Notes: generated by a model from the sequence alone, not told the origin. A DNA stretch of 36,750 nt from Candidatus Adlerbacteria bacterium (GCA_043734325.1 JAYTFN010000017.1:1-36750), one strand, 5' to 3'. Shown: positions 17,539 through 26,262, counted from the stretch's first letter. A program made the numbers and translations.

Positions 17539-17637
17539 TAATTTCTAATCAATTCAAAAGTACTAACCTAGAAGAAATGGTAAATTTCGCTTAAAAAGTG
17601 TATTGTAATTTTCATTAGAGGCCACAAACCTTTATAT

Positions 17638-17722
17638 GGAGGAGTGGCAGAGTGGTCTAACGCACCGCACTTGAAATGCGGCGTGCCGCAAGGTACCGTG
17701 AGTTCGAATCTCACCTCCTCCG
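17638..17722 (+). tRNA. tRNA-Ser (anticodon UGA), long variable arm
   Basis: Acceptor GGAGGAG/CTCCTCC; anticodon arm CCGCA-CTTGAAA-TGCGG; variable arm GTGCC-GCAA-GGTAC; T-arm GTGAG-TTCGAAT-CTCAC. Confidence 0.9.
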
Positions 17723-17746
17723 CCCGATGTCCAAGCTTGAACCCAA

Positions 17747-17802: not shown

Positions 17803-18351
17803 CTACTTATAAAATAACTCGTGATTACGAAGCTCTTTTTTTATATCTAAATAATTAGGGAGGGCTTTCTCCACAAGCGCCCAGAATTTTTTTGAATGAT
17901 TAAATTCTTTAAGATGGCATATTTCATGGACAATAATATAGTCACGATGTTTTTGTGGTAGAAATACAATTTTGTAATTAAAATTTAGATTTTGTTTGCA
18001 CGAACAGCTACCCCAACAAGTCTTTTGATTTTTAATAAAGATATTGTTAAACGAAAAACCATATACTTTGTTATAAACCCTAACCCGGTTCTGCACGAGA
18101 GCAAGAGCTTTGTCCTTGTTTTCCAAATAGTCTTTATGCGAGAAAGTACGGATAGCTTTGCTGTCCACGCTCTTAAAAAAGAGTATTTTGTCCCACACCC
18201 ACTGTTTTTTATCAGCAAGAAACTTCTCAACGATTGATAGTTCGACCCCGAAAGGGGTAGTCACTATTACACTGCCGTCACAATACACCGCAAGACGCAT
18301 TCGTTTTGCTCTTTTGCTCCTTTTAAGTTTATAAGAGATTTTCTTTTCCAT
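17803..18351 (-). CDS. DUF45/YgjP-like (M48-type) zinc metallopeptidase
   Basis: WGSCSCKQNLNFNYK...DYIIVHEICHLKEFNHSKKFW with an HExxH motif. It starts 17 nt downstream of hsdR. Confidence 0.8.
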   Translation of the reverse strand: MEKKISYKLKRSKRAKRMRLAVYCDGSVIVTTPFGVELSIVEKFLADKKQWVWDKILFFKSVDSKAIRTFSHKDYLENKDKALALVQNRVRVYNKVYGFSFNNIFIKNQKTCWGSCSCKQNLNFNYKIVFLPQKHRDYIIVHEICHLKEFNHSKKFWALVEKALPNYLDIKKELRNHELFYK

Positions 18352-18368
18352 ACTATATATTTTTCTTG

Positions 18369-21284
18369 CTAGAATTTCTTAGTGATGATGTCTACCAGTC
18401 TATTTAAGAATTTTGGAAAATCTTTTACAGTAAACCGACCTTTATAATCGCGCAGAATCAGTTCTTGCAAGGTTTGTTTAATATCTTTAACAAACACATC
18501 TCGCTTTGAGGATTCCTGCCACCCACTATCCAGGTCGTCCTCAATTCGATTTCGAAGTTCTTTAACAAATTCCTTAACTTCATCATCCTTGCCTCCATTA
18601 ATAAATTCCTGCGAGATAACATAAAGCGCATATTCTTTCAAATCAAGTCCTAAATCTTTTGCCTCATTTCCCTTTGTCTTGATATCACTCATTAATTCCT
18701 CATACCGACGGATTCTTTCCGCAAGGTCAATCTGATTTTGTTCAAACTCGCGACGAATAGCAGTTAGCCGTTCGCTAAATTTTTGATATGCAGGATTTTC
18801 ATCAAGATTGATTGAGATCTCTTGTTTGAGCATTTTCTCAAGATTCAGCGCCTTTTCCTCGTCATCCATCCCCTTGAGTCGCTCAAGTGTGTACAAATCA
18901 TTCACGCGTAGTTCGCGGAAATTCTTTGTAATTCCTTCGAAATCAATGATAGTGCTCTTTTGGATAAGCTCGCGGACTTTCTCGCCGTATTCTTCAAGTA
19001 AATATCGATCATCCTCGCTTCGAAATTCCTTCAAAAATGCCAAGTAAAAACTTGTCACCCATTCAAAAGGGCGAATGTATTGCTTCAAGTACGGATCAGG
19101 CGAAAGAAACTCAAACAAGCTCTTGAGCTTCATATACTTCTCAACAAAGTATTTCTGTTTGTCTTGATTATCAATGAAAATCTTTAAACATCGGCGAAGA
19201 TTATCCATTGATGGATCTTCGATATTTACGCCCGTAAATATTTTCATTACATCGCTCAAAACATCAGAAAATCTTGCCTTCACTCGCTCAATATCTATCA
19301 TCGCCGAATCAACGACATCCTCGTCAAAATCAAGAGCGTCATATAAATTTCGCGTAATTCCGTAGTAGTCGATAATTTTCCCTGCTTCCTTGTTTTTATA
19401 AACACGATTCGTGCGCGCAATCGCTTGCAAGAGATTATGATCGCGAAGCGGCTTATCGAGATACATCACTTGTTCAATTGGAGCATCGAAACCTGTGAGC
19501 AACATGTCGCAGACTAAAAGAAACTTCAAAGAAGATTTTGGGTCTTTGAATCGCTCAATAATCTGTTCGCGTTCACGCTTGCTCGTGTTATATGCTTTCA
19601 AATCATCCGCATCGCTATTTGGATCTCCGGGAGAATACACCACAGCCGACCATTCGGATGGTATGAGTTTATCGAGTAATTTCTTATACGTTGCCACGGC
19701 TTCGCGGTCATACGCCACGACCTGCGCCTTGAAGCCATTTGGCTCCACATAGAGCTTGTAATGCTCCACAATGTCCCTTGCGACAGCTTCCATGCGTTTG
19801 GGTAGCTTAACGAGCGCCGCCTTTTTACCGTATTTCCTTATAAGTTCAGTCTTTTGCTTGTCGGACAAATCTCCTGCTATTTCTTCAAACTGCTGATCGA
19901 GCTTTTCTTCGTCAATAGAAAACTTCGAAAGTCGAGCTTCATACGTCACCGGTATTGTCGCTCCATCATCAATCGCTTCTTGGATAGAGTAGTAGTCAAG
20001 ATATCTCTTTCCTTCACCTTCATAATTTCGAAAAGTGTTCGTATGCGCCTTATCAACAGGCGTTCCAGTAAACCCGAAGAAAAATGCTTTTTTGAACGCA
20101 TTTCGCATATTAATACCCGACACGCCCTCATCGCCGCGATGAGCTTCATCAGAAAGAATAATTACGTTTTCATCGAGATTCTCCACTTTGTCGCCAAGTT
20201 CCGAGAACTTTTGAATAGTGGTGATAAATATACCCTTTTCCGATGATTGTATTTTTTCTTCCAGATCCTTCCGTGAGGTTACCCGAACGATGTTCTTCCC
20301 TCCTGCATTAGTAAAAGTCTCAAATATCTGGTCGTCCAAGTCCACACGATCAACCAAAATAAATACTTTCGGATTGGCGAGAGCTTTGTTGAAGCGGAGC
20401 TTCCACGCGGTGAAATACATCGTGAGCGTCTTGCCAGATCCTTGCGTGTGCCAGATAAGTCCTTGGCGTTTTTCCTTCATCACTACACGCTCCACAATCT
20501 TGTTTGTTGCCCGCATCTGCTGATAGCGAGCCATTTTCTTCACTAGTTTTTCTTTTTCCTTTTCAAACAAAATAAAGTTTTGGACAATATCTAAAAAGTT
20601 TCCTTTAGACAAAAGTGAGAAAAGTATCATCTCAAGCTCTCCACCAAGTTCTTTTTCAATATCTTCATCTCTCCATTGGAGGAAGTACTGTTTGGGCGCG
20701 CCCGTGGCACCATAGACTGTTTTAAGGCCATCACTCGCGATGTTAAAACAGTTTGGAATAAATAGTTTCCGAGCTACTTTTTCGTATCTCTTTATTTGAT
20801 CAATCCCGTTTTCAAAACTCACTCCGAGAGAGGCAGTTGGGCTCTTTGCTTCAATATCCACAAGAGGAAGCCCGTTCACAAAAATCATTATATCTGGCCG
20901 GATATTTTCTGTATCCCCTTCGAAATAGAATTGATTGGTAACAACAAATTGGTTATTCTCCGGATTGTCAAAATCAAGTAGTTTATAGTCATGCTTTCTC
21001 CCAGTGACAGAATTTTTGAGGTTAATTCCATCTCTTAGCGCTTTCAAAAAAGCTTCGTTATTATCAATTTTCCTAACTTCATGAAGGACACTTTTTACCT
21101 CGCTATCGTTTGCGGTTGGATTGAGTGTGCTAATAGCTTTCTCTAAAAGAGAAGTGACGATGTATTCACTCTCAAGATCACGAAGTTTTGCAAATTCCTC
21201 CGGCTTTATGTACTGAAACCCGAGCTTATCTTTAATAAACTTAATGATGTAATTTTCTACTGTATATTGTTCGTTGAATTTCAT
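18369..21284 (-). CDS. hsdR: Type I restriction enzyme R subunit
   Basis: HSDR_N-like N-terminus; helicase motif I HTQGSGKTLTM; DEAH box LSDEAHRG; motif VI QAIARTNR; 971 aa. Confidence 0.92.
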   Translation of the reverse strand: MKFNEQYTVENYIIKFIKDKLGFQYIKPEEFAKLRDLESEYIVTSLLEKAISTLNPTANDSEVKSVLHEVRKIDNNEAFLKALRDGINLKNSVTGRKHDYKLLDFDNPENNQFVVTNQFYFEGDTENIRPDIMIFVNGLPLVDIEAKSPTASLGVSFENGIDQIKRYEKVARKLFIPNCFNIASDGLKTVYGATGAPKQYFLQWRDEDIEKELGGELEMILFSLLSKGNFLDIVQNFILFEKEKEKLVKKMARYQQMRATNKIVERVVMKEKRQGLIWHTQGSGKTLTMYFTAWKLRFNKALANPKVFILVDRVDLDDQIFETFTNAGGKNIVRVTSRKDLEEKIQSSEKGIFITTIQKFSELGDKVENLDENVIILSDEAHRGDEGVSGINMRNAFKKAFFFGFTGTPVDKAHTNTFRNYEGEGKRYLDYYSIQEAIDDGATIPVTYEARLSKFSIDEEKLDQQFEEIAGDLSDKQKTELIRKYGKKAALVKLPKRMEAVARDIVEHYKLYVEPNGFKAQVVAYDREAVATYKKLLDKLIPSEWSAVVYSPGDPNSDADDLKAYNTSKREREQIIERFKDPKSSLKFLLVCDMLLTGFDAPIEQVMYLDKPLRDHNLLQAIARTNRVYKNKEAGKIIDYYGITRNLYDALDFDEDVVDSAMIDIERVKARFSDVLSDVMKIFTGVNIEDPSMDNLRRCLKIFIDNQDKQKYFVEKYMKLKSLFEFLSPDPYLKQYIRPFEWVTSFYLAFLKEFRSEDDRYLLEEYGEKVRELIQKSTIIDFEGITKNFRELRVNDLYTLERLKGMDDEEKALNLEKMLKQEISINLDENPAYQKFSERLTAIRREFEQNQIDLAERIRRYEELMSDIKTKGNEAKDLGLDLKEYALYVISQEFINGGKDDEVKEFVKELRNRIEDDLDSGWQESSKRDVFVKDIKQTLQELILRDYKGRFTVKDFPKFLNRLVDIITKKF

Positions 21285-21389
21285 ATTTTTTTCTAACCTT
21301 AGTTTTCCACAGCTTCATTGATTTTTAAGAGGAAAAAGGTATTATATTGGTATGGGCTTTGCCCCGGGGTTCGCGTATGCGAGCCGGCA

Positions 21390-22244
21390 TCAAACCTGAG
21401 CTTGCTCAGGTTTTTTGCTGCTTGAGTCATCAAAACAACTATATTTTATGCCTCGGCTGGACCATTCTGATTCAGGAAGCAGTGCGTCAATAACCTTTTT
21501 GTTATTATACAATGCAACCCACGGATTATACGTTGGCTCATATTTCCTTTTCGCCATAGGATATAGATAAAGATCGGCAAGCTGCACATACAAATTTTCC
21601 TTGGTTTTACGTCGGGGTTCACCGAGTATGAGTTGCTGAAAATCAGACTGATTGAGCCCACCATATTTTTTAGAATTTTCTATATGAAACGGCATGCCAC
21701 TATGTTTCAAATCCTTTGCGTACTGAATAATAGCGCGATCCTCTTTTTTCCCAGCTCCCTCAAATCTCACGTTCAATATTCCGCCTTCATTTTGTAGATA
21801 TTTTGCAACACGTTCAATCAAAATCGAATATGCTGTTTTGCACATCAGCCACCGCTTGTCTCCATATAGTTGCTTATATCGCTCATTGTAGCCAGGTCGG
21901 TGAATCACAGTTGCAAATCCAATAACGGGTAGCGACTCAAGAAACACACTGAGTTCCTCATAGAATGTATCTCTTAATTTTGCACTACTCTTCTCTAGCC
22001 ATGCAAAATTGTCTCGCATACCGCGAATCTTGGTAGAGTGCAGTGGATAGTCTATTTTCCATTTCTTACAAAACTCAAAATATCGATCACACAGCTCGAG
22101 TTTATCAACTTCAGCAACTAAAACACCTCCCAGCGCAAAATGATCCATTCCATCGTCACGAGATTTTAAATCCAGCCCATCCGGAAGCCGTGAGCCTGAG
22201 TCGTCAATATACAAATAATACTGTTGAGCTGGTGCCTTTGTCAT
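21390..22244 (-). CDS. DUF3800-like protein (function unknown) between hsdS and hsdR
   Basis: N-terminal YLYIDDSGS acidic motif and C-terminal VQLADLYLYP motif, both typical of DUF3800. ATGA overlap with the hsdS stop. Confidence 0.65.
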   Translation of the reverse strand: MTKAPAQQYYLYIDDSGSRLPDGLDLKSRDDGMDHFALGGVLVAEVDKLELCDRYFEFCKKWKIDYPLHSTKIRGMRDNFAWLEKSSAKLRDTFYEELSVFLESLPVIGFATVIHRPGYNERYKQLYGDKRWLMCKTAYSILIERVAKYLQNEGGILNVRFEGAGKKEDRAIIQYAKDLKHSGMPFHIENSKKYGGLNQSDFQQLILGEPRRKTKENLYVQLADLYLYPMAKRKYEPTYNPWVALYNNKKVIDALLPESEWSSRGIKYSCFDDSSSKKPEQAQV

Positions 22245-23392
22245 ATTTGTACCCTTACCGATCCACTCAATAAATCCTGCATCAGACCTTTTTTGAGAAG
22301 AGTAAGTTTTGCTTTCAATTTCTTATTGACTGAAATCTTTTCATTGATACTCACCAATATTTCTGCAATCTCTCGTTGCTCTGATATTGGGGGAAGTGAG
22401 ATTGGTAATTTTTCTAATAGTTTAAGAGTTAAGAATTTAGTGGTTGAACCCACCGAAGAATCTCTTAGTTCATTCAATCGCGTATTCAATACTTCTTTAA
22501 GATATGGATAGGATAAATTATCTTCACTTTTTACGGAGATAACATAAGTTCTTTGATAAGCATCAAATTTACCATCGTAATATTTGACTGAGTATTTCCC
22601 AGCCGCGTTATTTCCAGCAAGTAAAATAGCTTCCTGGTCAAACGAATATTGATCTATTGCAAAAGTTTCTTGTGAACAAGTGAAAAACGGATATGCTCCA
22701 CCGTCTACTGCTTTATTTGAATTCAATTTTCCAGTTTTGAAAATACAAAGATCGCCCAGTTTTGATATTTTAAATTCTGAATTTCTAATCCCGCGAGTAA
22801 AGAGCTGTTGCATCAATCCACGCTTGAGCTTTTCTGTTGCCTTAATCACTTCCTGCGTCTTCGCAATATCCTCATCCACCGTCCCCAAAATCTCCGCAAT
22901 TTTTTGTTGTTCTTTTAAGATGGGTAATAAAAATTGATAGTTGGCGACGTCGTCTGAGTTTATGGCAGGATAGTTTGAACCAATTGCCTTATCAACAAGA
23001 TAATTTGTGAAATCGTCTTGCACCAAAACTTGATACGCATATCCGTGATCAATCGCTCTAGACCGAACTACACTAAATCCTGTCGAGCATAATGTACTGA
23101 CACTGTAATCGGGGACGCGACATATGCCCTTTAAATTCGGTCTCACATTTGAAATAAGAATATCGTCCTTTCTTACAAGACGGCGCGCCCTACCTGGTGC
23201 TTGCAATCCGGTAAATATTTTTAACTCTTGAATTTTGAAATCTTTGACAGAGGCAATATCGATATATTGGAAAAAATCATCGGGTGATGATTGGGGGGTT
23301 ATTTGTTCGGGGTTCACATCCAAGACATCGGCAACACGCACTTGTGTCCATCCACTCGGAATATTCTTTTGTTGTGTTGTGTTAGTTTTCAT
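22241..23392 (-). CDS. hsdS: Type I R-M specificity subunit, two target-recognition domains
   Basis: Two conserved-region repeats: LPILKEQQKIAEILGTVDEDI...LKRGLMQQLF and LPPISEQREIAEILVSINEKI...LKKGLMQDLL. I trimmed the start to the ATG at 23392, 1 nt after the stop of the upstream gene. Confidence 0.88.
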   Translation of the reverse strand: MKTNTTQQKNIPSGWTQVRVADVLDVNPEQITPQSSPDDFFQYIDIASVKDFKIQELKIFTGLQAPGRARRLVRKDDILISNVRPNLKGICRVPDYSVSTLCSTGFSVVRSRAIDHGYAYQVLVQDDFTNYLVDKAIGSNYPAINSDDVANYQFLLPILKEQQKIAEILGTVDEDIAKTQEVIKATEKLKRGLMQQLFTRGIRNSEFKISKLGDLCIFKTGKLNSNKAVDGGAYPFFTCSQETFAIDQYSFDQEAILLAGNNAAGKYSVKYYDGKFDAYQRTYVISVKSEDNLSYPYLKEVLNTRLNELRDSSVGSTTKFLTLKLLEKLPISLPPISEQREIAEILVSINEKISVNKKLKAKLTLLKKGLMQDLLSGSVRVQI

Positions 23393-23393
23393 A

Positions 23394-24293
23394 TTATTTA
23401 CTTGAGATCCACTTAATTGAGCCAGCAATGGAAGCATTCAGGACTTGTAGGCAAATTTTTGCAGTATGCTTATCGGGTGAAAACTTTGAGACGCTTTGTT
23501 CATACGGATGAATATAGTTACGAAAGTCTCGCAGGGTATGTCCAAACTTTTTCACATCCAAACCAATTACACCGAGCTCATACGCTACATCAATAAGACC
23601 CGCCAGCTTCCAGTCCGGTAGAGGTAAAACTTTTTCCAACTTGTCTTTTGGACTGGCAGCAGCTGATTGAAACTCTTGCGGATGTTTTACTGCAATACCA
23701 AATAAAATTCCCTCTAGTATACTTCCAGCCATAATAACGGAGGACAGCGGCGCATTATGTTGTAAACATTGGCGTGACTCCAGAATGCGGTCTTTCAAAA
23801 TACTTTCTATCACTCCATCAAGACCAAGTTTTGAAATATCATTTTCTTCAAAATCTTTTTTCAAAAACTCTTCCTCGGAATCAGTGGGTGCATTTTTTAT
23901 ATCTACAATCGGATTCAATGATTCCTTTAGAGAAACTATGATCGGATCACGACCTTGAAAGATAACACTCATATTTTCCATAAATAAAATATCATTCATC
24001 GCCTTTACAGCTATCACTAATTTCGTCCTGTCTGCTTTGTATTCTCTTATGTCAACAAGCCTCAAAATTACTTTTTCGAGATCGTCGAATGTTAACTGCT
24101 TGAGCAACTCAAGCACCCACCATTTTCGTGTGCTCCCGTCGTGAGTTGCACTAATATTGATATTTTGAAAAAAACGAGTTAAATAACCTGAAGATCTATA
24201 CTCAGGATACTTTCCGGCTTCATCTCCACAAATAAAATCAGCAAGTGCGTCGAGCGTGGAGGGGTCTAATCTATTTTTTAAATATCTCGCCAT
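23394..24293 (-). CDS. Uncharacterised protein. The C-terminal half is HEPN-like (putative RNase) and the N-terminal domain is unknown.
   Basis: 299 aa. The C-terminal helical region ESRQCLQHNAPLSSVIMAGSILEGILFG ... LIDVAYELGVI ... LRDFRNYIHP contains an R-x6-H / RN..H motif (DNA 23508-23531) that fits the HEPN Rx4-6H signature. The gene is wedged between hsdM and hsdS with 1-nt spacers on both sides. Confidence 0.6.
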   Translation of the reverse strand: MARYLKNRLDPSTLDALADFICGDEAGKYPEYRSSGYLTRFFQNINISATHDGSTRKWWVLELLKQLTFDDLEKVILRLVDIREYKADRTKLVIAVKAMNDILFMENMSVIFQGRDPIIVSLKESLNPIVDIKNAPTDSEEEFLKKDFEENDISKLGLDGVIESILKDRILESRQCLQHNAPLSSVIMAGSILEGILFGIAVKHPQEFQSAAASPKDKLEKVLPLPDWKLAGLIDVAYELGVIGLDVKKFGHTLRDFRNYIHPYEQSVSKFSPDKHTAKICLQVLNASIAGSIKWISSK

Positions 24294-24294
24294 A

Positions 24295-26004
24295 CTAATA
24301 TTTCAACCCCTTCAAATACCTCTCGACCTTCTTATCAATCGCTTCTCGCTCTTTTTCAATTTCTTTCACTTCTGCCCACACAGTTTTTATATCAACCACC
24401 ATCTCATCTTCGCCATTTTCTACATAGCGACGAACATTGAGATTGAATTCATTTTCTTCAAGCTCTTTAACACCCACCACGCGCGCATATTTCTCAATAT
24501 CTCGATATCCCTCAAATGCTGACACTATTTTCCCAATATCCCCCTTGCGTAGGCGGTTTTGATTTTTGCCTGCTTCATAGTCTTGCTCGGCGTCGATGAT
24601 GAGAATTCTGTTCTTATGGGCTTCTGGCTTGTTTTTGTTGAATATCACAATCGCCGCCGGAATACCTGTACCGTAGAAAAGTTTTGCGGGGAGAGCAACA
24701 ATGGCCTCAATCAGGTCATTTTTGATAAGCTCCTCTCGAATACGGCCCTCGGCTCCACCGCGGAAAAGCACACCATGCGGAAGCACGATGCCAGCACGTC
24801 CGTTTTCATTCATTGACTTCACCATGTGAAGCACAAAGGCGTAGTCGGCTTTTTTTGCTGGAGGCATTTCGTATCCAGCAACTCGTCCGTATTTGTCGTG
24901 CTTAAATATCTCGTACTCCCATTCACTTATGGAGTAGGGCGGGTTTGCGACGCAAATGTCGAATGTTTTGAGCGCGCCGTCCGGGTTTAGAAACTTCGGA
25001 TCAGCGAGTGTGTCTCCGCGCTGAATATCCGCACTATCAAGTCCGTGGAGGAACATGTTTATCTTTGCAATCGCATAAGTACCGATGTTTATTTCTTGCC
25101 CATAAAGATAGAGCGAGCGGGCTTTCTTTTCCCCGGCTTCATTTTTGAGATGATGATATGCCTCCAAGAGAAAACCGCCCGAGCCAACCGCCATGTCGTA
25201 GATATGATCTTTCTCGTGGGGCTTGAGAATATTGATAACCACACGCTCAACTTCACGGGGAGTATAGAATTCTCCGCCTTTCTTGCCAGCGTCTGCCGCG
25301 AATTGCTCAATGAGGTATTCGTATGCATCTCCGAGAAGGTCAGAGCTGATGTAATTGTCGCCAAAATTGTGCTGCGAGAAGTGATTGATAAGGCGTTGGA
25401 TGGTTTCATTGGGGAATTTGTCTTTATTTGCAAAATCAAGGTCGTCAAAAATCTTGTCGAGCTTCGGGCTGTTGGCATTGGTGAGTTTATCAAAAATCTC
25501 GTTGAGCTTGTGACCGATTCCTTCCGCTTGCATCTCTACTACTTTCCATCGGCAGTCTTTTGGAACTTGAAAGCGATGATTGTGATCTGAGCGGGCAACT
25601 TCTTCGTCGTGATATACTTCAAGAACTTTTTTATATTCCTCGTCCCAGGAGTCACTGATTCGTTTGTAGAAAAGGAGTCCGAAAATATATTTCTTGTAAT
25701 CAGAGCTATCAATTTTCCCACGCAAAATGTCTGCGCTCCTCCAAAGGAATTGCTTGAGTTGGGTGAGATTCATTTTCCCTGAATCATCGGTGAGTGGAGC
25801 ATCAAAACTTTTCATAATACTTTTGTCATTTGCAATTCGCTCTATGTCTTCCGGTTTATATTTTCGATCTTTTCGTGGACCAACACGGAGTGGGGTTATG
25901 AGTCCTTTCTTCTCCCAATTACGAAGCGTGTCTTGGTGAATACCAAAAATGCTCGAAACTTCACTGATTGAGAGTAGTGCTTTTTCGTTTGATGTTTTCT
26001 TCAT
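24295..26004 (-). CDS. hsdM: Type I R-M N6-adenine DNA methyltransferase subunit with a fused N-terminal MerR/excisionase-type HTH
   Basis: AdoMet motif DMAVGSGGFL; catalytic VANPPYS; HsdM_N-like region. The first ~60 aa, LLSISEVSSIFGIHQDTLRNWEKKGLITP, form an HTH. Confidence 0.92.
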   Translation of the reverse strand: MKKTSNEKALLSISEVSSIFGIHQDTLRNWEKKGLITPLRVGPRKDRKYKPEDIERIANDKSIMKSFDAPLTDDSGKMNLTQLKQFLWRSADILRGKIDSSDYKKYIFGLLFYKRISDSWDEEYKKVLEVYHDEEVARSDHNHRFQVPKDCRWKVVEMQAEGIGHKLNEIFDKLTNANSPKLDKIFDDLDFANKDKFPNETIQRLINHFSQHNFGDNYISSDLLGDAYEYLIEQFAADAGKKGGEFYTPREVERVVINILKPHEKDHIYDMAVGSGGFLLEAYHHLKNEAGEKKARSLYLYGQEINIGTYAIAKINMFLHGLDSADIQRGDTLADPKFLNPDGALKTFDICVANPPYSISEWEYEIFKHDKYGRVAGYEMPPAKKADYAFVLHMVKSMNENGRAGIVLPHGVLFRGGAEGRIREELIKNDLIEAIVALPAKLFYGTGIPAAIVIFNKNKPEAHKNRILIIDAEQDYEAGKNQNRLRKGDIGKIVSAFEGYRDIEKYARVVGVKELEENEFNLNVRRYVENGEDEMVVDIKTVWAEVKEIEKEREAIDKKVERYLKGLKY

Positions 26005-26005
26005 A

Positions 26006-26076
26006 TTTCATAGGTTATCATAGGTGCTATGCCATTGTAAAGCTTTTTACAAAATATCATAACTTTTCATAGGTTA
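26006..26076. promoter_or_regulatory. Three direct copies of TCATAGGT (two extend to TTTCATAGGTTA) immediately upstream of hsdM
   Basis: Copies at 26008-26015, 26018-26025 (10-bp phasing) and 26067-26074. The 12-mers at 26006-26017 and 26065-26076 are identical. Confidence 0.4.
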
Positions 26077-26262
26077 ACTGATTTTAGATTGCGTGGAGTA
26101 ATCAACTGCATTCTGTCCTTTGTCTGATTTTGGTTTCGGTACCTCAAACCACTCTGGATGTTGCTTGAACATGCCACGTAATTCACGTATGCTTGTATCA
26201 AGAACGTTGAATTTGAGCCACGTTTTCGGTTCAAACTTCCGGACATCGCCACCGCCTGAGTT

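What the first reader, a model, noticed from the sequence alone, without database searches (positions are those of the whole stretch)
17803..26004. Type I R-M operon with three embedded or appended accessory genes (HEPN-like, DUF3800-like, DUF45 peptidase): candidate composite defence system
The gene order is HTH-hsdM, a 299-aa HEPN-like gene, hsdS, a DUF3800-like gene, a 105-nt gap, hsdR and a DUF45/M48 peptidase. The first four genes are joined by spacers of +1, +1 and -4 nt, so the two unknown genes cannot be expressed independently of the methylase and specificity subunits. The classic precedent is prrC, an anticodon nuclease inserted into the EcoprrI hsd locus and kept silent by the R-M proteins until phage attack; RloC is a related anticodon nuclease. 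Two different uncharacterised passengers inside one hsd operon suggest a layered backup (abortive-infection) mechanism guarded by the R-M complex.
Basis: partly seen in the sequence, partly recalled or inferred. Interest (0 to 1): 0.8.

Follow-up and report, generated by a model that had tools for sequence, protein, structure and literature searches.

The report
Restriction operon carrying two swappable defence cassettes
A complete Type I restriction-modification operon carries two independent, exchangeable passenger modules: a predicted HEPN RNase, and a DUF3800 nuclease-like gene that travels with its own conserved 65-nt small RNA gene hidden in the supposed "gap"; the layout is a known kind, but the RNA-protein pair is uncharacterised and now testable.

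Summary
On the minus strand lie MerR-HTH-HsdM, a 299-aa gene (X299), HsdS, DUF3800, HsdR and a YgjP/DUF45 peptidase, with junctions of +1, +1, -4, 105 and 17 nt.

One correction matters. The 105-nt "gap" holds a conserved, convergent ~65-nt sRNA gene with its own promoter, two hairpins and an intrinsic terminator. It accompanies 75 of 80 related DUF3800 genes, has strong covariation and matches no Rfam family.

X299 is an N-terminal domain plus a divergent DUF4145-type HEPN domain. Elsewhere that N-terminal domain is fused to TIR and kinase effectors.

Neither passenger depends on this operon:
- Near-identical backbones lack X299 (L092) or carry PIN_12 in place of DUF3800 plus the sRNA (L002), with sharp cassette boundaries.
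- Most homologues of both passengers lie outside R-M loci.
- The X299 + DUF3800 pairing appears only in this organism.

So this is an R-M scaffold with two cargo slots ("embedded defences", a published concept), not a co-evolved four-gene system. A PrrC-like guard remains possible for X299 only: its close clade sits directly upstream of hsdS in 8 of 8 contexts. No function was tested here.

The parts
26005..26077 (-). Conserved operon leader. It has a -35-like TTTACA and repeated CCTATGA/CATAGG half-sites, a likely operator for the MerR-type HTH fused to HsdM.
   Evidence: Nucleotide homology to L092 and L087 starts at about 26077. The repeats are conserved in the alignment. Operator function is inferred.
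24295..26004 (-). hsdM with an N-terminal MerR-type HTH (569 aa)
   Evidence: Pfam MerR_1, HsdM_N and N6_Mtase; TIGR00497 above its cutoff; PADLOC MTase_I at 1.5e-136.
23394..24293 (-). X299, cargo of slot 1. It has an N-terminal domain (aa 1-125, 23919..24293) that is shared elsewhere with TIR and kinase effectors, plus a C-terminal divergent DUF4145-type HEPN domain (aa ~140-299) with the motif LRDFRNYIHP.
   Evidence: More than 3250 homologues. Invariant motifs. DUF4145 hit in 21 of 76 members. AF2 model at pLDDT 89.7, with HEPN folds the only recurring matches. N-domain fusions to other effectors. The gene is absent from the near-identical backbone L092.
22241..23392 (-). hsdS, with two target-recognition domains
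   Evidence: Pfam Methylase_S x2; PADLOC Specificity_I. The start at 23392 is supported by alignment to the L002 and L092 HsdS.
21390..22244 (-). DUF3800 protein (284 aa), the protein half of the slot 2 cargo. It has a predicted RNase H-like fold and invariant D14, E144, E162 and Q221-x2-D224.
   Evidence: PF12686 above its gathering score. 1324 homologues. AF2 model at pLDDT 89 and pTM 0.88, with best fold hits RNase HII 1eke (prob 0.97) and RNase HI. Invariant columns.
21303..21345 (+). Promoter of the DUF3800-linked sRNA: -35 TTGATT (21318-21323), a 16-nt spacer and -10 TATTAT (21340-21345). It is preceded by a DnaA-box-like TTTTCCACA (21303-21311).
   Evidence: The hexamers are conserved in alignment A5 and listed by the promoter scan. 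TTWTNCACA sits at a fixed position in 9 of 46 loci, against 0.003 expected per locus. Coordinates verified.
21352..21416 (+). A ~65-nt small RNA gene convergent with DUF3800. It has hairpin 1 (21354-21364), hairpin 2 (21368-21385) and an intrinsic terminator plus U6 (21395-21416). The terminator overlaps the last 27 nt of the DUF3800 ORF including its stop codon.
   Evidence: Found by nhmmer or the covariance model next to 75 of 80 DUF3800 loci, and never in X299-only loci. 13 of 19 pairs show compensatory changes; 96.1% of cells are paired against 84.0% when shuffled (0 of 500 shuffles reach it). The strand is called from 73 versus 13 G.U cells, the U-tract and the promoter. No Rfam hit.
18369..21284 (-). 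hsdR (971 aa)
   Evidence: HSDR_N, SWI2_SNF2/ResIII, T1R_D3-like and T1RH-like_C; TIGR00348 at 2.8e-172.
17803..18351 (-). YgjP-like (DUF45) HExxH metallopeptidase. It is a backbone component, not swapped cargo.
   Evidence: PF01863 at 8e-41. It is conserved downstream of hsdR in L002, L085, L087, L092, L182 and L183.

Best explanation
The locus is an intact, horizontally mobile Type I R-M operon. Its backbone is MerR-HTH-HsdM, HsdS, HsdR and a backbone-linked YgjP-like peptidase. This backbone acts as a scaffold with two cargo slots.

Slot 1 lies between hsdM and hsdS and holds X299. X299 is a single protein built from an N-terminal domain, inferred to be a sensor, plus a DUF4145-type HEPN RNase. 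It is most likely an abortive-infection-type effector that stays latent until its N-terminal domain meets a trigger.

Slot 2 lies between hsdS and hsdR and holds a two-part cassette. One part is a DUF3800 RNase H-like protein. The other is a ~65-nt sRNA transcribed convergently from its own promoter and sharing a terminator with DUF3800. This sRNA most likely binds or controls the DUF3800 protein, as an RNA antitoxin, a sensor or a guide.

The cassettes are autonomous and exchangeable. They use the operon for expression and co-inheritance and act in parallel with restriction (layered defence). They are not obligate partners of the R-M complex or of each other.

Shown here: the anatomy, the conservation, the cassette boundaries, and the RNA structure and strand. 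Inferred: RNase and nuclease activities, the sensor role, any RNA-protein interaction, and defence itself.
For: - The R-M genes are complete and pass curated cutoffs.
- Cassette swaps occur in near-identical backbones, with breakpoints at the gene junctions. X299 is replaced in L092; DUF3800 plus the sRNA (window ~21291-22261) is replaced by PIN_12 in L002.
- Slot 2 holds PIN_12, OLD-type ATPase with DUF4357, Bro-N with DUF3892, SocA_Panacea, or a metallo-beta-lactamase-like gene in relatives. Slot 1 additionally holds SduA_C, Trypco2 or NYN.
- X299 family: more than 3250 homologues in many phyla. Most are stand-alone among unrelated, often defence-type neighbours.
- The N-terminal domain is fused elsewhere to TIR_2, CAP12-PCTIR TIR and a Ser/Thr kinase.
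- The C-terminal domain looks like HEPN by motif, by weak DUF4145 hits and by fold.
- Precedents for DUF4145 defence RNases: RAZR (PMC13017515), BxaP (PMC10799925) and Ishtar (10.64898/2026.07.06.735840).
- The sRNA co-occurs with DUF3800 in 75 of 80 loci, always convergent, with covariation. It is also present on rhizobial conjugative plasmids.
- DUF3800 is known to associate with ncRNAs, retrons and CRISPR effectors (PMC5737381, PMC7736814, PMC10910872).
- Embedding of defence genes in Type I R-M operons is documented (10.1101/2024.01.29.577857, PMC11411939, PMC3710099).
Against: - No function was tested.
- Neither passenger hits any PADLOC v2.0.0 model.
- The HEPN and RNase H assignments rest on sub-threshold sequence hits and Foldseek E-values above 0.02.
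- The close X299 clade is always next to hsdS (8 of 8). This argues for some dependence on R-M and so against full autonomy of this particular clade.
- DUF3800 is repeatedly joined to hsdS by the same ATGA overlap (window, L092, L094), with a comparable overlap at the hsdS/DUF3800 junction in L107 by tblastn coordinates. This could also reflect functional coupling.
- Expression of the sRNA is only predicted.
Confidence: 0.6

Rival explanations
1. PrrC-like guard. X299 is held inactive by binding HsdM/HsdS. It is released as an RNase when a phage anti-restriction protein disables the R-M complex.
For: - In all 8 independent contexts with at least 57% identity, X299 lies immediately upstream of hsdS, with junctions from a 14-nt overlap to a 44-nt gap (most within a few nt). 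These operons have at least three different HsdR C-terminal types.
- X299 co-evolves with HsdM and HsdR in L002 (85%, 86% and 86% identity).
- The PrrC precedent is described in PMC3710099.
Against: - About 63 of 80 family loci have no hsd gene within 10 kb.
- The N-terminal domain is shared with TIR and kinase effectors, which suggests a sensor that does not depend on R-M.
- A backbone with 89-93% identical HsdM and HsdR exists without X299.
- X299 has no ABC ATPase domain and no PADLOC PrrC hit.
Confidence: 0.25
2. The DUF3800-sRNA pair is a selfish addiction or toxin-antitoxin cassette. It would be type I-like (antisense RNA) or type III-like (RNA binds protein). Its main effect would be its own maintenance, or that of the operon or plasmid, rather than phage defence.
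For: - The RNA is convergent and overlaps or abuts the 3' end of the gene (27 nt in the window; overlap above 0 in 30 of 45 loci).
- The cassette behaves as a mobile unit in many contexts, including conjugative plasmids next to tra genes and IS21 elements.
Against: - Overlap with the ORF is not universal.
- Hairpins 1 and 2 are near-invariant in sequence, which pure antisense pairing does not need.
- DUF3800 is also linked to retron and CRISPR defence systems in the literature (PMC7736814, PMC10910872).
- TA function and defence are not mutually exclusive.
Confidence: 0.25
3. The passengers tune the R-M system itself rather than acting as separate defences. Examples would be the DUF3800 cassette's terminator and opposing promoter lowering hsdR transcription, the peptidase degrading HsdR (restriction alleviation), or X299 acting on hsd mRNA.
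For: - In backbones without the cassette, hsdR follows the upstream gene with a gap of 7 nt or less, or an overlap (L002, L085, L087).
- So the cassette inserts a hairpin and a convergent promoter into a formerly continuous operon.
- YgjP is invariably linked to hsdR in this backbone.
Against: - Both passengers occur mostly without any R-M genes.
- The sRNA element travels with DUF3800, not with hsdR (L097, L180).
Confidence: 0.1
4. The conserved 100-nt element after DUF3800 is a DNA-level site, such as a recombination or attC-like site or a protein-binding site. It would not be an RNA gene.
For: - It lies exactly at the cassette boundary.
- IS elements are inserted just beyond it in L094, L180 and L181.
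Against: - Compensatory changes keep three helices.
- G.U pairs are strongly strand-biased, 73 against 13.
- Conserved -35 and -10 hexamers lie upstream and a U-tract lies downstream on that same strand.
Confidence: 0.07

Closest known systems
Defence genes embedded in Type I R-M operons: 'guilt-by-embedding' (Payne et al. 2024 preprint, 10.1101/2024.01.29.577857), TgvAB in the Vibrio cholerae VPI-2 T1RM (PMC11411939), and R-M-embedded HEPN genes (Anantharaman et al. 2013, PMC3710099)
   Same: Uncharacterised defence-type genes nested between hsd genes. The cargo is variable and also occurs non-embedded. TgvAB works independently of HsdR.
   Different: Neither X299 nor this DUF3800 subfamily matches any PADLOC v2.0.0 model. 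Here one cargo brings its own sRNA gene. Two separate slots are occupied at once.
PrrC / EcoprrI (and RloC) anticodon nucleases
   Same: A HEPN-type RNase gene sits inside an hsd operon. The close X299 clade is, like PrrC, always embedded (8 of 8).
   Different: X299 has no ABC ATPase domain and a different HEPN family (DUF4145-like). It lies between hsdM and hsdS, whereas prrC lies between hsdS and hsdR. Most of the wider family is not R-M-linked. No evidence of masking by the R-M complex.
RAZR (PD-T7-4), BxaP and Ishtar: experimentally validated stand-alone DUF4145-HEPN defence proteins
   Same: Single polypeptides that pair a DUF4145-type HEPN domain with a second, presumably sensing, domain. 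They have an R...H catalytic motif and an abortive-infection logic.
   Different: X299's partner domain is unrelated. It has no Cys4 zinc ribbon, no HEAT-like domain and no beta-rich C-terminal domain. The HEPN domain is C-terminal and only weakly matches PF13643. No PADLOC hit.
AbiJ-NTD-type N-terminal modules (Anantharaman et al. 2013)
   Same: An N-terminal domain of about 110-140 aa combined with alternative effectors (HEPN, TIR, kinase). AbiJ-NTD1 is reported fused to DUF4145 and to kinases.
   Different: Identity with any named AbiJ-NTD could not be tested, because no NTD1 or NTD2 model was available. X299 itself does not hit Pfam AbiJ_NTD3-5.
DUF3800-associated RNA motifs DUF3800-I to -XI (Weinberg et al. 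2017, PMC5737381). DUF3800 is also an accessory of type VII retrons, of Cas12a2/a3 and of Cas13 CASK loci.
   Same: A structured ncRNA encoded next to a DUF3800 gene, ending in an intrinsic terminator. The protein is a predicted RNase H-like fold. Function is unknown.
   Different: This RNA matches no Rfam 15 family. DUF3800-I and -IX are known to be in that library; whether the other nine are could not be checked. Here the promoter, the strand (convergent), the ~65-nt size and the cassette boundaries are defined, and the pair sits inside an R-M operon.

Membership tests
Type I restriction-modification system | HsdM, HsdS and HsdR are all present and full-length | tested here: met
   TIGR00497 at 277.7 bits against a 242.75 cutoff. 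Methylase_S x2. TIGR00348 at 574.7 bits against 284.55. PADLOC MTase_I, Specificity_I and REase_I.
PrrC/RloC anticodon nucleases | N-terminal ABC (Rad50/SbcC-like) ATPase fused to the HEPN nuclease | tested here: not met
   X299 has no ATPase domain in Pfam, NCBIfam or PADLOC. The AF2 model shows a 125-aa helical N-terminal domain.
PrrC/RloC anticodon nucleases | Near-exclusive embedding in Type I R-M loci (PrrC) | tested here: inconclusive
   Whole family: about 17 of 80 loci have hsd genes. Close clade at 57% identity or more: 8 of 8 embedded directly upstream of hsdS.
PrrC/RloC anticodon nucleases | Latency imposed by the R-M proteins and release by an anti-restriction factor | not testable with these tools
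   Requires biochemistry or genetics.
HEPN superfamily / Pfam DUF4145 (PF13643) | Score at or above the Pfam gathering threshold | tested here: not met
   15.7 bits against 23.1, E=0.016. 21 of 76 relatives hit at E<0.1, best 3.2e-4.
HEPN superfamily / Pfam DUF4145 (PF13643) | Conserved R-x4-6-H catalytic motif | tested here: met
   R255-DFRNYI-H262 is an Rx6H motif. R258, N259 and H262 are invariant and R255 is at least 90% conserved across 76 sequences.
HEPN superfamily / Pfam DUF4145 (PF13643) | Alpha-helical HEPN fold | tested here: inconclusive
   HEPN structures are the only recurring matches (1ufb prob 0.97, TMt 0.67; 2hsb 0.94; HepT 7bxo 0.80; Csm6). All Foldseek E-values are 0.47 or higher.
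RAZR (PD-T7-4) | N-terminal Cys4 zinc ribbon plus C-terminal DUF4145 | tested here: not met
   The N-terminal domain has only one invariant Cys (C22). No PADLOC hit. No PDB sequence hit.
AbiJ-NTD-like sensor modules | The same N-terminal domain recombined with different effector domains | tested here: met
   The N-terminal domain is found fused to TIR_2 (three proteins), CAP12-PCTIR TIR (two), a protein kinase and AbiJ_NTD4. This shows how the domain works, not that it belongs to the family.
AbiJ-NTD-like sensor modules | Sequence match to a named AbiJ-NTD family | not testable with these tools
   Pfam holds NTD3-5 only and X299 hits none of them. No NTD1 or NTD2 model was available.
DUF3800 (PF12686) | Pfam gathering score, plus the conserved N-terminal D and C-terminal QxxD | tested here: met
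   41.6 bits against 21. Invariant D14 (YIDDSG) and Q221-LA-D224.
DUF3800 (PF12686) | RNase H-like fold (a literature prediction) | tested here: inconclusive
   Top fold hits are RNase HII 1eke (prob 0.97, E=0.029), LC9-RNase H1 and E. coli RNase HI. No E-value is at or below 0.001.
DUF3800-associated RNA motifs (Rfam DUF3800-I, DUF3800-IX and others) | Structured RNA encoded adjacent to a DUF3800 gene | tested here: met
   75 of 80 loci. 13 of 19 pairs are compensatory.
DUF3800-associated RNA motifs (Rfam DUF3800-I, DUF3800-IX and others) | Match to an existing Rfam covariance model | tested here: not met
   No DUF3800-* hit in the window at E up to 10 on a 171-nt scan, nor in 11 DUF3800 loci at gathering score. 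Motifs II-VIII, X and XI may not all be in Rfam, and the supplementary alignments were not available.
Type I toxin-antitoxin (cis-antisense RNA) | The antisense RNA overlaps the toxin mRNA | tested here: inconclusive
   27-nt overlap with the ORF in the window. Overlap above 0 in 30 of 45 loci, and the RNA abuts the stop codon in the rest. Toxicity was not tested.
YgjP-like / DUF45 metallopeptidase | Pfam PF01863 and an HExxH motif | tested here: met
   140.8 bits against 26. HEICH is present in the translation.
Catalogued phage-defence candidates (PADLOC-DB v2.0.0) | Hit to any PADLOC model | tested here: not met
   X299, DUF3800 and YgjP give 0 families at E up to 0.01.

The most novel reading that the evidence does not exclude
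The DUF3800 protein and its convergent ~65-nt sRNA form a previously uncharacterised two-component RNA-protein immune or addiction module. An RNase H-like nuclease would be held in check, or guided, by a dedicated structured RNA, playing the role that msDNA plays in type VII retrons. The module moves as a ~1-kb cassette into R-M operons, conjugative plasmids and other defence loci.

In addition, the hsdS-adjacent X299 clade could be a second, PrrC-independent invention of an R-M-guarded HEPN RNase.
Probability: 0.35. Interest if true: 0.8.

Novelty: new variant of a known kind. Interest (0 to 1): 0.55.

Why it matters
- It turns a vague 'composite system' into a concrete modular picture: an R-M scaffold with two cargo slots and mapped cassette boundaries. 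Natural knock-out and swap variants (L092, L002) are already available for comparison.
- It adds an uncatalogued HEPN family, whose N-terminal domain is shared with TIR and kinase effectors, to the list of likely sensor-effector defence proteins.
- It gives a clean genetic definition of a DUF3800-RNA pair: promoter, strand, ~65-nt size, terminator and 94% co-occurrence. The pair also occurs on plasmids of cultivable rhizobia. The function of DUF3800 and of its many associated RNAs has been an open question since 2017, and DUF3800 also accompanies retrons, Cas12a2/a3 and Cas13. A tractable stand-alone pair makes that question directly testable.

Tried and rejected
- X299 found nothing usable in Pfam, NCBIfam, PADLOC or PHROGs beyond a weak DUF4145 hit. 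A profile search against PDB sequences gave no hit.
- Foldseek gave no statistically significant match for either passenger. The fold assignments are therefore only supportive.
- Rfam scans of the window, the gap and 11 DUF3800 loci gave no DUF3800-type family.
- The supplementary files of the 2017 motif paper are not held. Identity with motifs II-XI therefore could not be checked.
- I looked for att-like direct repeats of the tRNA-Ser 3' end at the other end of the operon. None of 10 nt or more was found, and no integrase is present, so there is no evidence for a tRNA-integrated island.
- I tested whether the TIR protein next to an X299 homologue (L001) shares the N-terminal domain. It does not.
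- I considered the RNA as a sense-strand 3'-UTR element of DUF3800. This was rejected because of the G.U bias, the promoter and the U-tract.
- A literature search on DUF45/YgjP with hsdR gave nothing useful. The reported COG1451 link to Type I R-M is from my memory only.
Full report
**Observation**

All six genes lie on the minus strand as described.
- HsdM, 24295..26004: MerR-type HTH at aa 12-58, HsdM_N, and N6_Mtase at 1.7e-106.
- X299, a 299-aa ORF, 23394..24293.
- HsdS, 22241..23392: two Methylase_S domains.
- DUF3800, 21390..22244: PF12686 at 41.6 bits against a cutoff of 21.
- HsdR, 18369..21284: TIGR00348 at 2.8e-172.
- YgjP-like HExxH peptidase, 17803..18351: PF01863 at 8e-41.

The junctions read TAG-T-ATG, TAA-T-ATG, ATGA, 105 nt and 17 nt. 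PADLOC recognises only the three hsd genes. The operon has lower G+C (0.37-0.44) than its flanks. It abuts a tRNA-Ser gene. The flanks carry housekeeping genes on a metagenomic scaffold.

**The 299-aa passenger (X299)**

X299 belongs to a large family. It has more than 3250 homologues in the protein database, and at least 586 matching stretches in the species-representative genome collection, spread across many phyla. The family has two strongly conserved domains.

The C-terminal domain carries invariant GSxLEG and LRDFRNYIHP motifs (R255/R258, N259, H262).
- It gives sub-threshold DUF4145 hits in 21 of 76 members.
- In a confident AF2 model (pLDDT 89.7), HEPN structures are the only recurring fold matches, although none is statistically significant.

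The N-terminal domain (aa 1-125) matches nothing known. An exhaustive search shows it fused elsewhere to TIR_2, CAP12-PCTIR TIR, a Ser/Thr kinase and AbiJ_NTD4. This is the sensor-plus-interchangeable-effector pattern described for AbiJ-NTD domains, one of which is reported fused to DUF4145 (PMC3710099).

Experimentally validated DUF4145 defence RNases exist: RAZR (PMC13017515), BxaP (PMC10799925) and Ishtar (bioRxiv 10.64898/2026.07.06.735840). Their partner domains differ from X299's.

**Context of X299**

Among the 80 best genome loci, about 17 have hsd genes nearby. The immediate neighbours are otherwise unrelated: 107 singleton clusters. They include TIR, AbiTii, Abi_C, Shedu SduA_C, RhuM, DUF4391 and integrases.

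The clade closest to the window (at least 57% identity) is different. In 8 of 8 independent contexts X299 lies immediately upstream of hsdS inside a Type I operon. These operons have HsdR proteins of at least three C-terminal types.

**DUF3800 and the 'gap'**

The DUF3800 subfamily has 1324 homologues. It has invariant D14, E144, E162 and QxxD224. Its confident model (pTM 0.88) best matches RNase HII and RNase HI, weakly. This agrees with published predictions (PMC7736814, PMC10910872). No experimentally shown function was found in the literature searched.

Aligning the 105-nt gap with two other hsdS-DUF3800-hsdR loci showed near-invariant nucleotides, even though the proteins are only about 66% identical. 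The same element follows a DUF3800 gene that is not in an R-M locus.

I fetched 80 metagenomic DUF3800 loci and searched them first with nhmmer and then with a covariance model. The element is present directly after DUF3800, always in the same orientation, in 75 of 80 loci. It is absent from X299-only loci. It is also present on conjugative plasmids of S. meliloti SM11 and R. etli CFN42.

Read on the strand opposite to DUF3800, the element has the following parts:
- a conserved -35 (TTGATT) and -10 (TATTAT);
- hairpin 1, GGGC/GCCC;
- hairpin 2, 7 bp, with a U.G wobble in 41 of 45 sequences;
- an intrinsic terminator with a U-tract.

Support for the structure and the strand:
- 13 of 19 pairs show compensatory changes.
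- 96.1% of cells are paired, against 84.0% in shuffles (0 of 500 shuffles reach it) and 22-60% in slid registers.
- The other strand pairs less well (89.0%) and has 13 G.U cells against 73.

The predicted RNA is about 65 nt long, at window 21352..21416 on the plus strand. Its terminator overlaps the last 27 nt of the DUF3800 ORF here. In other loci it overlaps or abuts the stop codon.

No Rfam 15 family matches. Eleven different DUF3800-associated RNA motifs of unknown function are on record (PMC5737381). I could not check whether this RNA is one of those absent from Rfam.

**Modularity**

L092 shares 89% (HsdM), 93% (HsdR) and 87% (YgjP) identity with the window. It also shares the neighbouring tRNA and the DUF3800-sRNA cassette. 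It has two unrelated genes in place of X299. Nucleotide homology stops at the hsdM stop codon and resumes at the hsdS start.

L002 shares 86%, 85% and 86% identity for HsdM, X299 and HsdR. It has PIN_12 in place of DUF3800 plus the sRNA. Homology resumes 6 nt before the hsdR ATG.

Other relatives carry different cargo:
- In the S-R slot: OLD-type ATPase with DUF4357, Bro-N with DUF3892, SocA_Panacea, or a metallo-beta-lactamase-like gene.
- Extra genes in the M-S slot: SduA_C, Trypco2 or NYN.

No other locus combines X299 and DUF3800. YgjP stays with hsdR throughout and is part of the backbone.

**Interpretation**

The best-supported reading is an intact Type I R-M operon serving as a scaffold for two independent, exchangeable cassettes. 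That defence genes are embedded in Type I R-M operons is already published (10.1101/2024.01.29.577857; PMC11411939; PMC3710099).

The four-gene 'composite system' is not a conserved unit. The PrrC analogy fails its structural test, because X299 has no ABC ATPase. However, the strict hsdS adjacency of the close X299 clade keeps an R-M-coupled mode alive as a rival (about 0.25).

For DUF3800, the near-invariant hairpins, the dedicated promoter and the tight co-occurrence point to a direct RNA-protein partnership (antitoxin, sensor or guide). This is inference. No activity, toxicity or phage phenotype was or could be tested here.

**Verdict**

- Novelty: a new variant of a known kind.
- The most valuable lead is the defined DUF3800-sRNA cassette. 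It makes a question that has been open since 2017 experimentally tractable.

Noticed in passing
window 21303..21311 (+), just upstream of the sRNA -35: There is a DnaA-box-like nonamer here, TTTTCCACA (relaxed consensus TTWTNCACA). An exact match to the consensus sits at the same position, about 7 nt upstream of the -35, in 9 of 46 distinct DUF3800-sRNA loci, against about 0.003 expected per locus. Several are the perfect TTATCCACA. Whether DnaA or another protein binds it is unknown.
   Followed up: partly
window 26005..26077 (-), leader of hsdM: This 72-nt leader is conserved with L092 and L087. It carries three CCTATGA repeats (CATAGG in inverted form in L087) flanking a -35-like TTTACA/TTGACA. 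It looks like an operator for the MerR-type HTH fused to HsdM, which would mean the methyltransferase autoregulates the operon.
   Followed up: partly
window 17637..17725 (+) and L092 10736..10822: A tRNA-Ser(UGA) gene lies 78 nt beyond the end of ygjP. The close relative L092 has a tRNA in the same place, so the two loci are syntenic. No att-like repeat of 10 nt or more and no integrase were found, so how the operon was acquired is unclear. L002 carries the same backbone at a different genomic site.
   Followed up: partly
window ~26067..26250 (-): There is an open frame without a clear start codon, ...FEPKTWLKFNVLDTSIRELRGMFKQHPEWFEVPKPKSDKGQNAVDYSTQSKIS*, directly upstream of the conserved operon leader. 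It may be a remnant of a gene truncated when the operon arrived.
   Followed up: no
L094-L096 7064..8136; L180 4113..6392; L181 4173..6448: Transposase genes (HTH_38/rve; IS21 istAB) are inserted shortly after the DUF3800-sRNA element in three unrelated contexts, about 120-250 nt beyond it. One of them lies between the cassette and hsdR. This could be chance, or the element may be a preferred IS target.
   Followed up: no
L064, L066, L070, L071, L073, L077, L083 (match to X299 aa ~136-291 only): A sister group shares only the X299 HEPN domain (49-57% identity) and has a different N-terminal part. In several of these loci hsdM and/or hsdR genes flank it, often next to RhuM or Abi_C genes. So the HEPN module itself is recombined with other N-terminal domains.
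   Followed up: partly
L092 3159..4746; L094 3523..4773; L183 3951..4622: The hsdM-hsdS slot of related operons holds other uncharacterised cargo: 347-aa plus 177-aa proteins with no Pfam hit, and NYN-domain proteins with a 157-aa partner. These are further embedded candidates.
   Followed up: no
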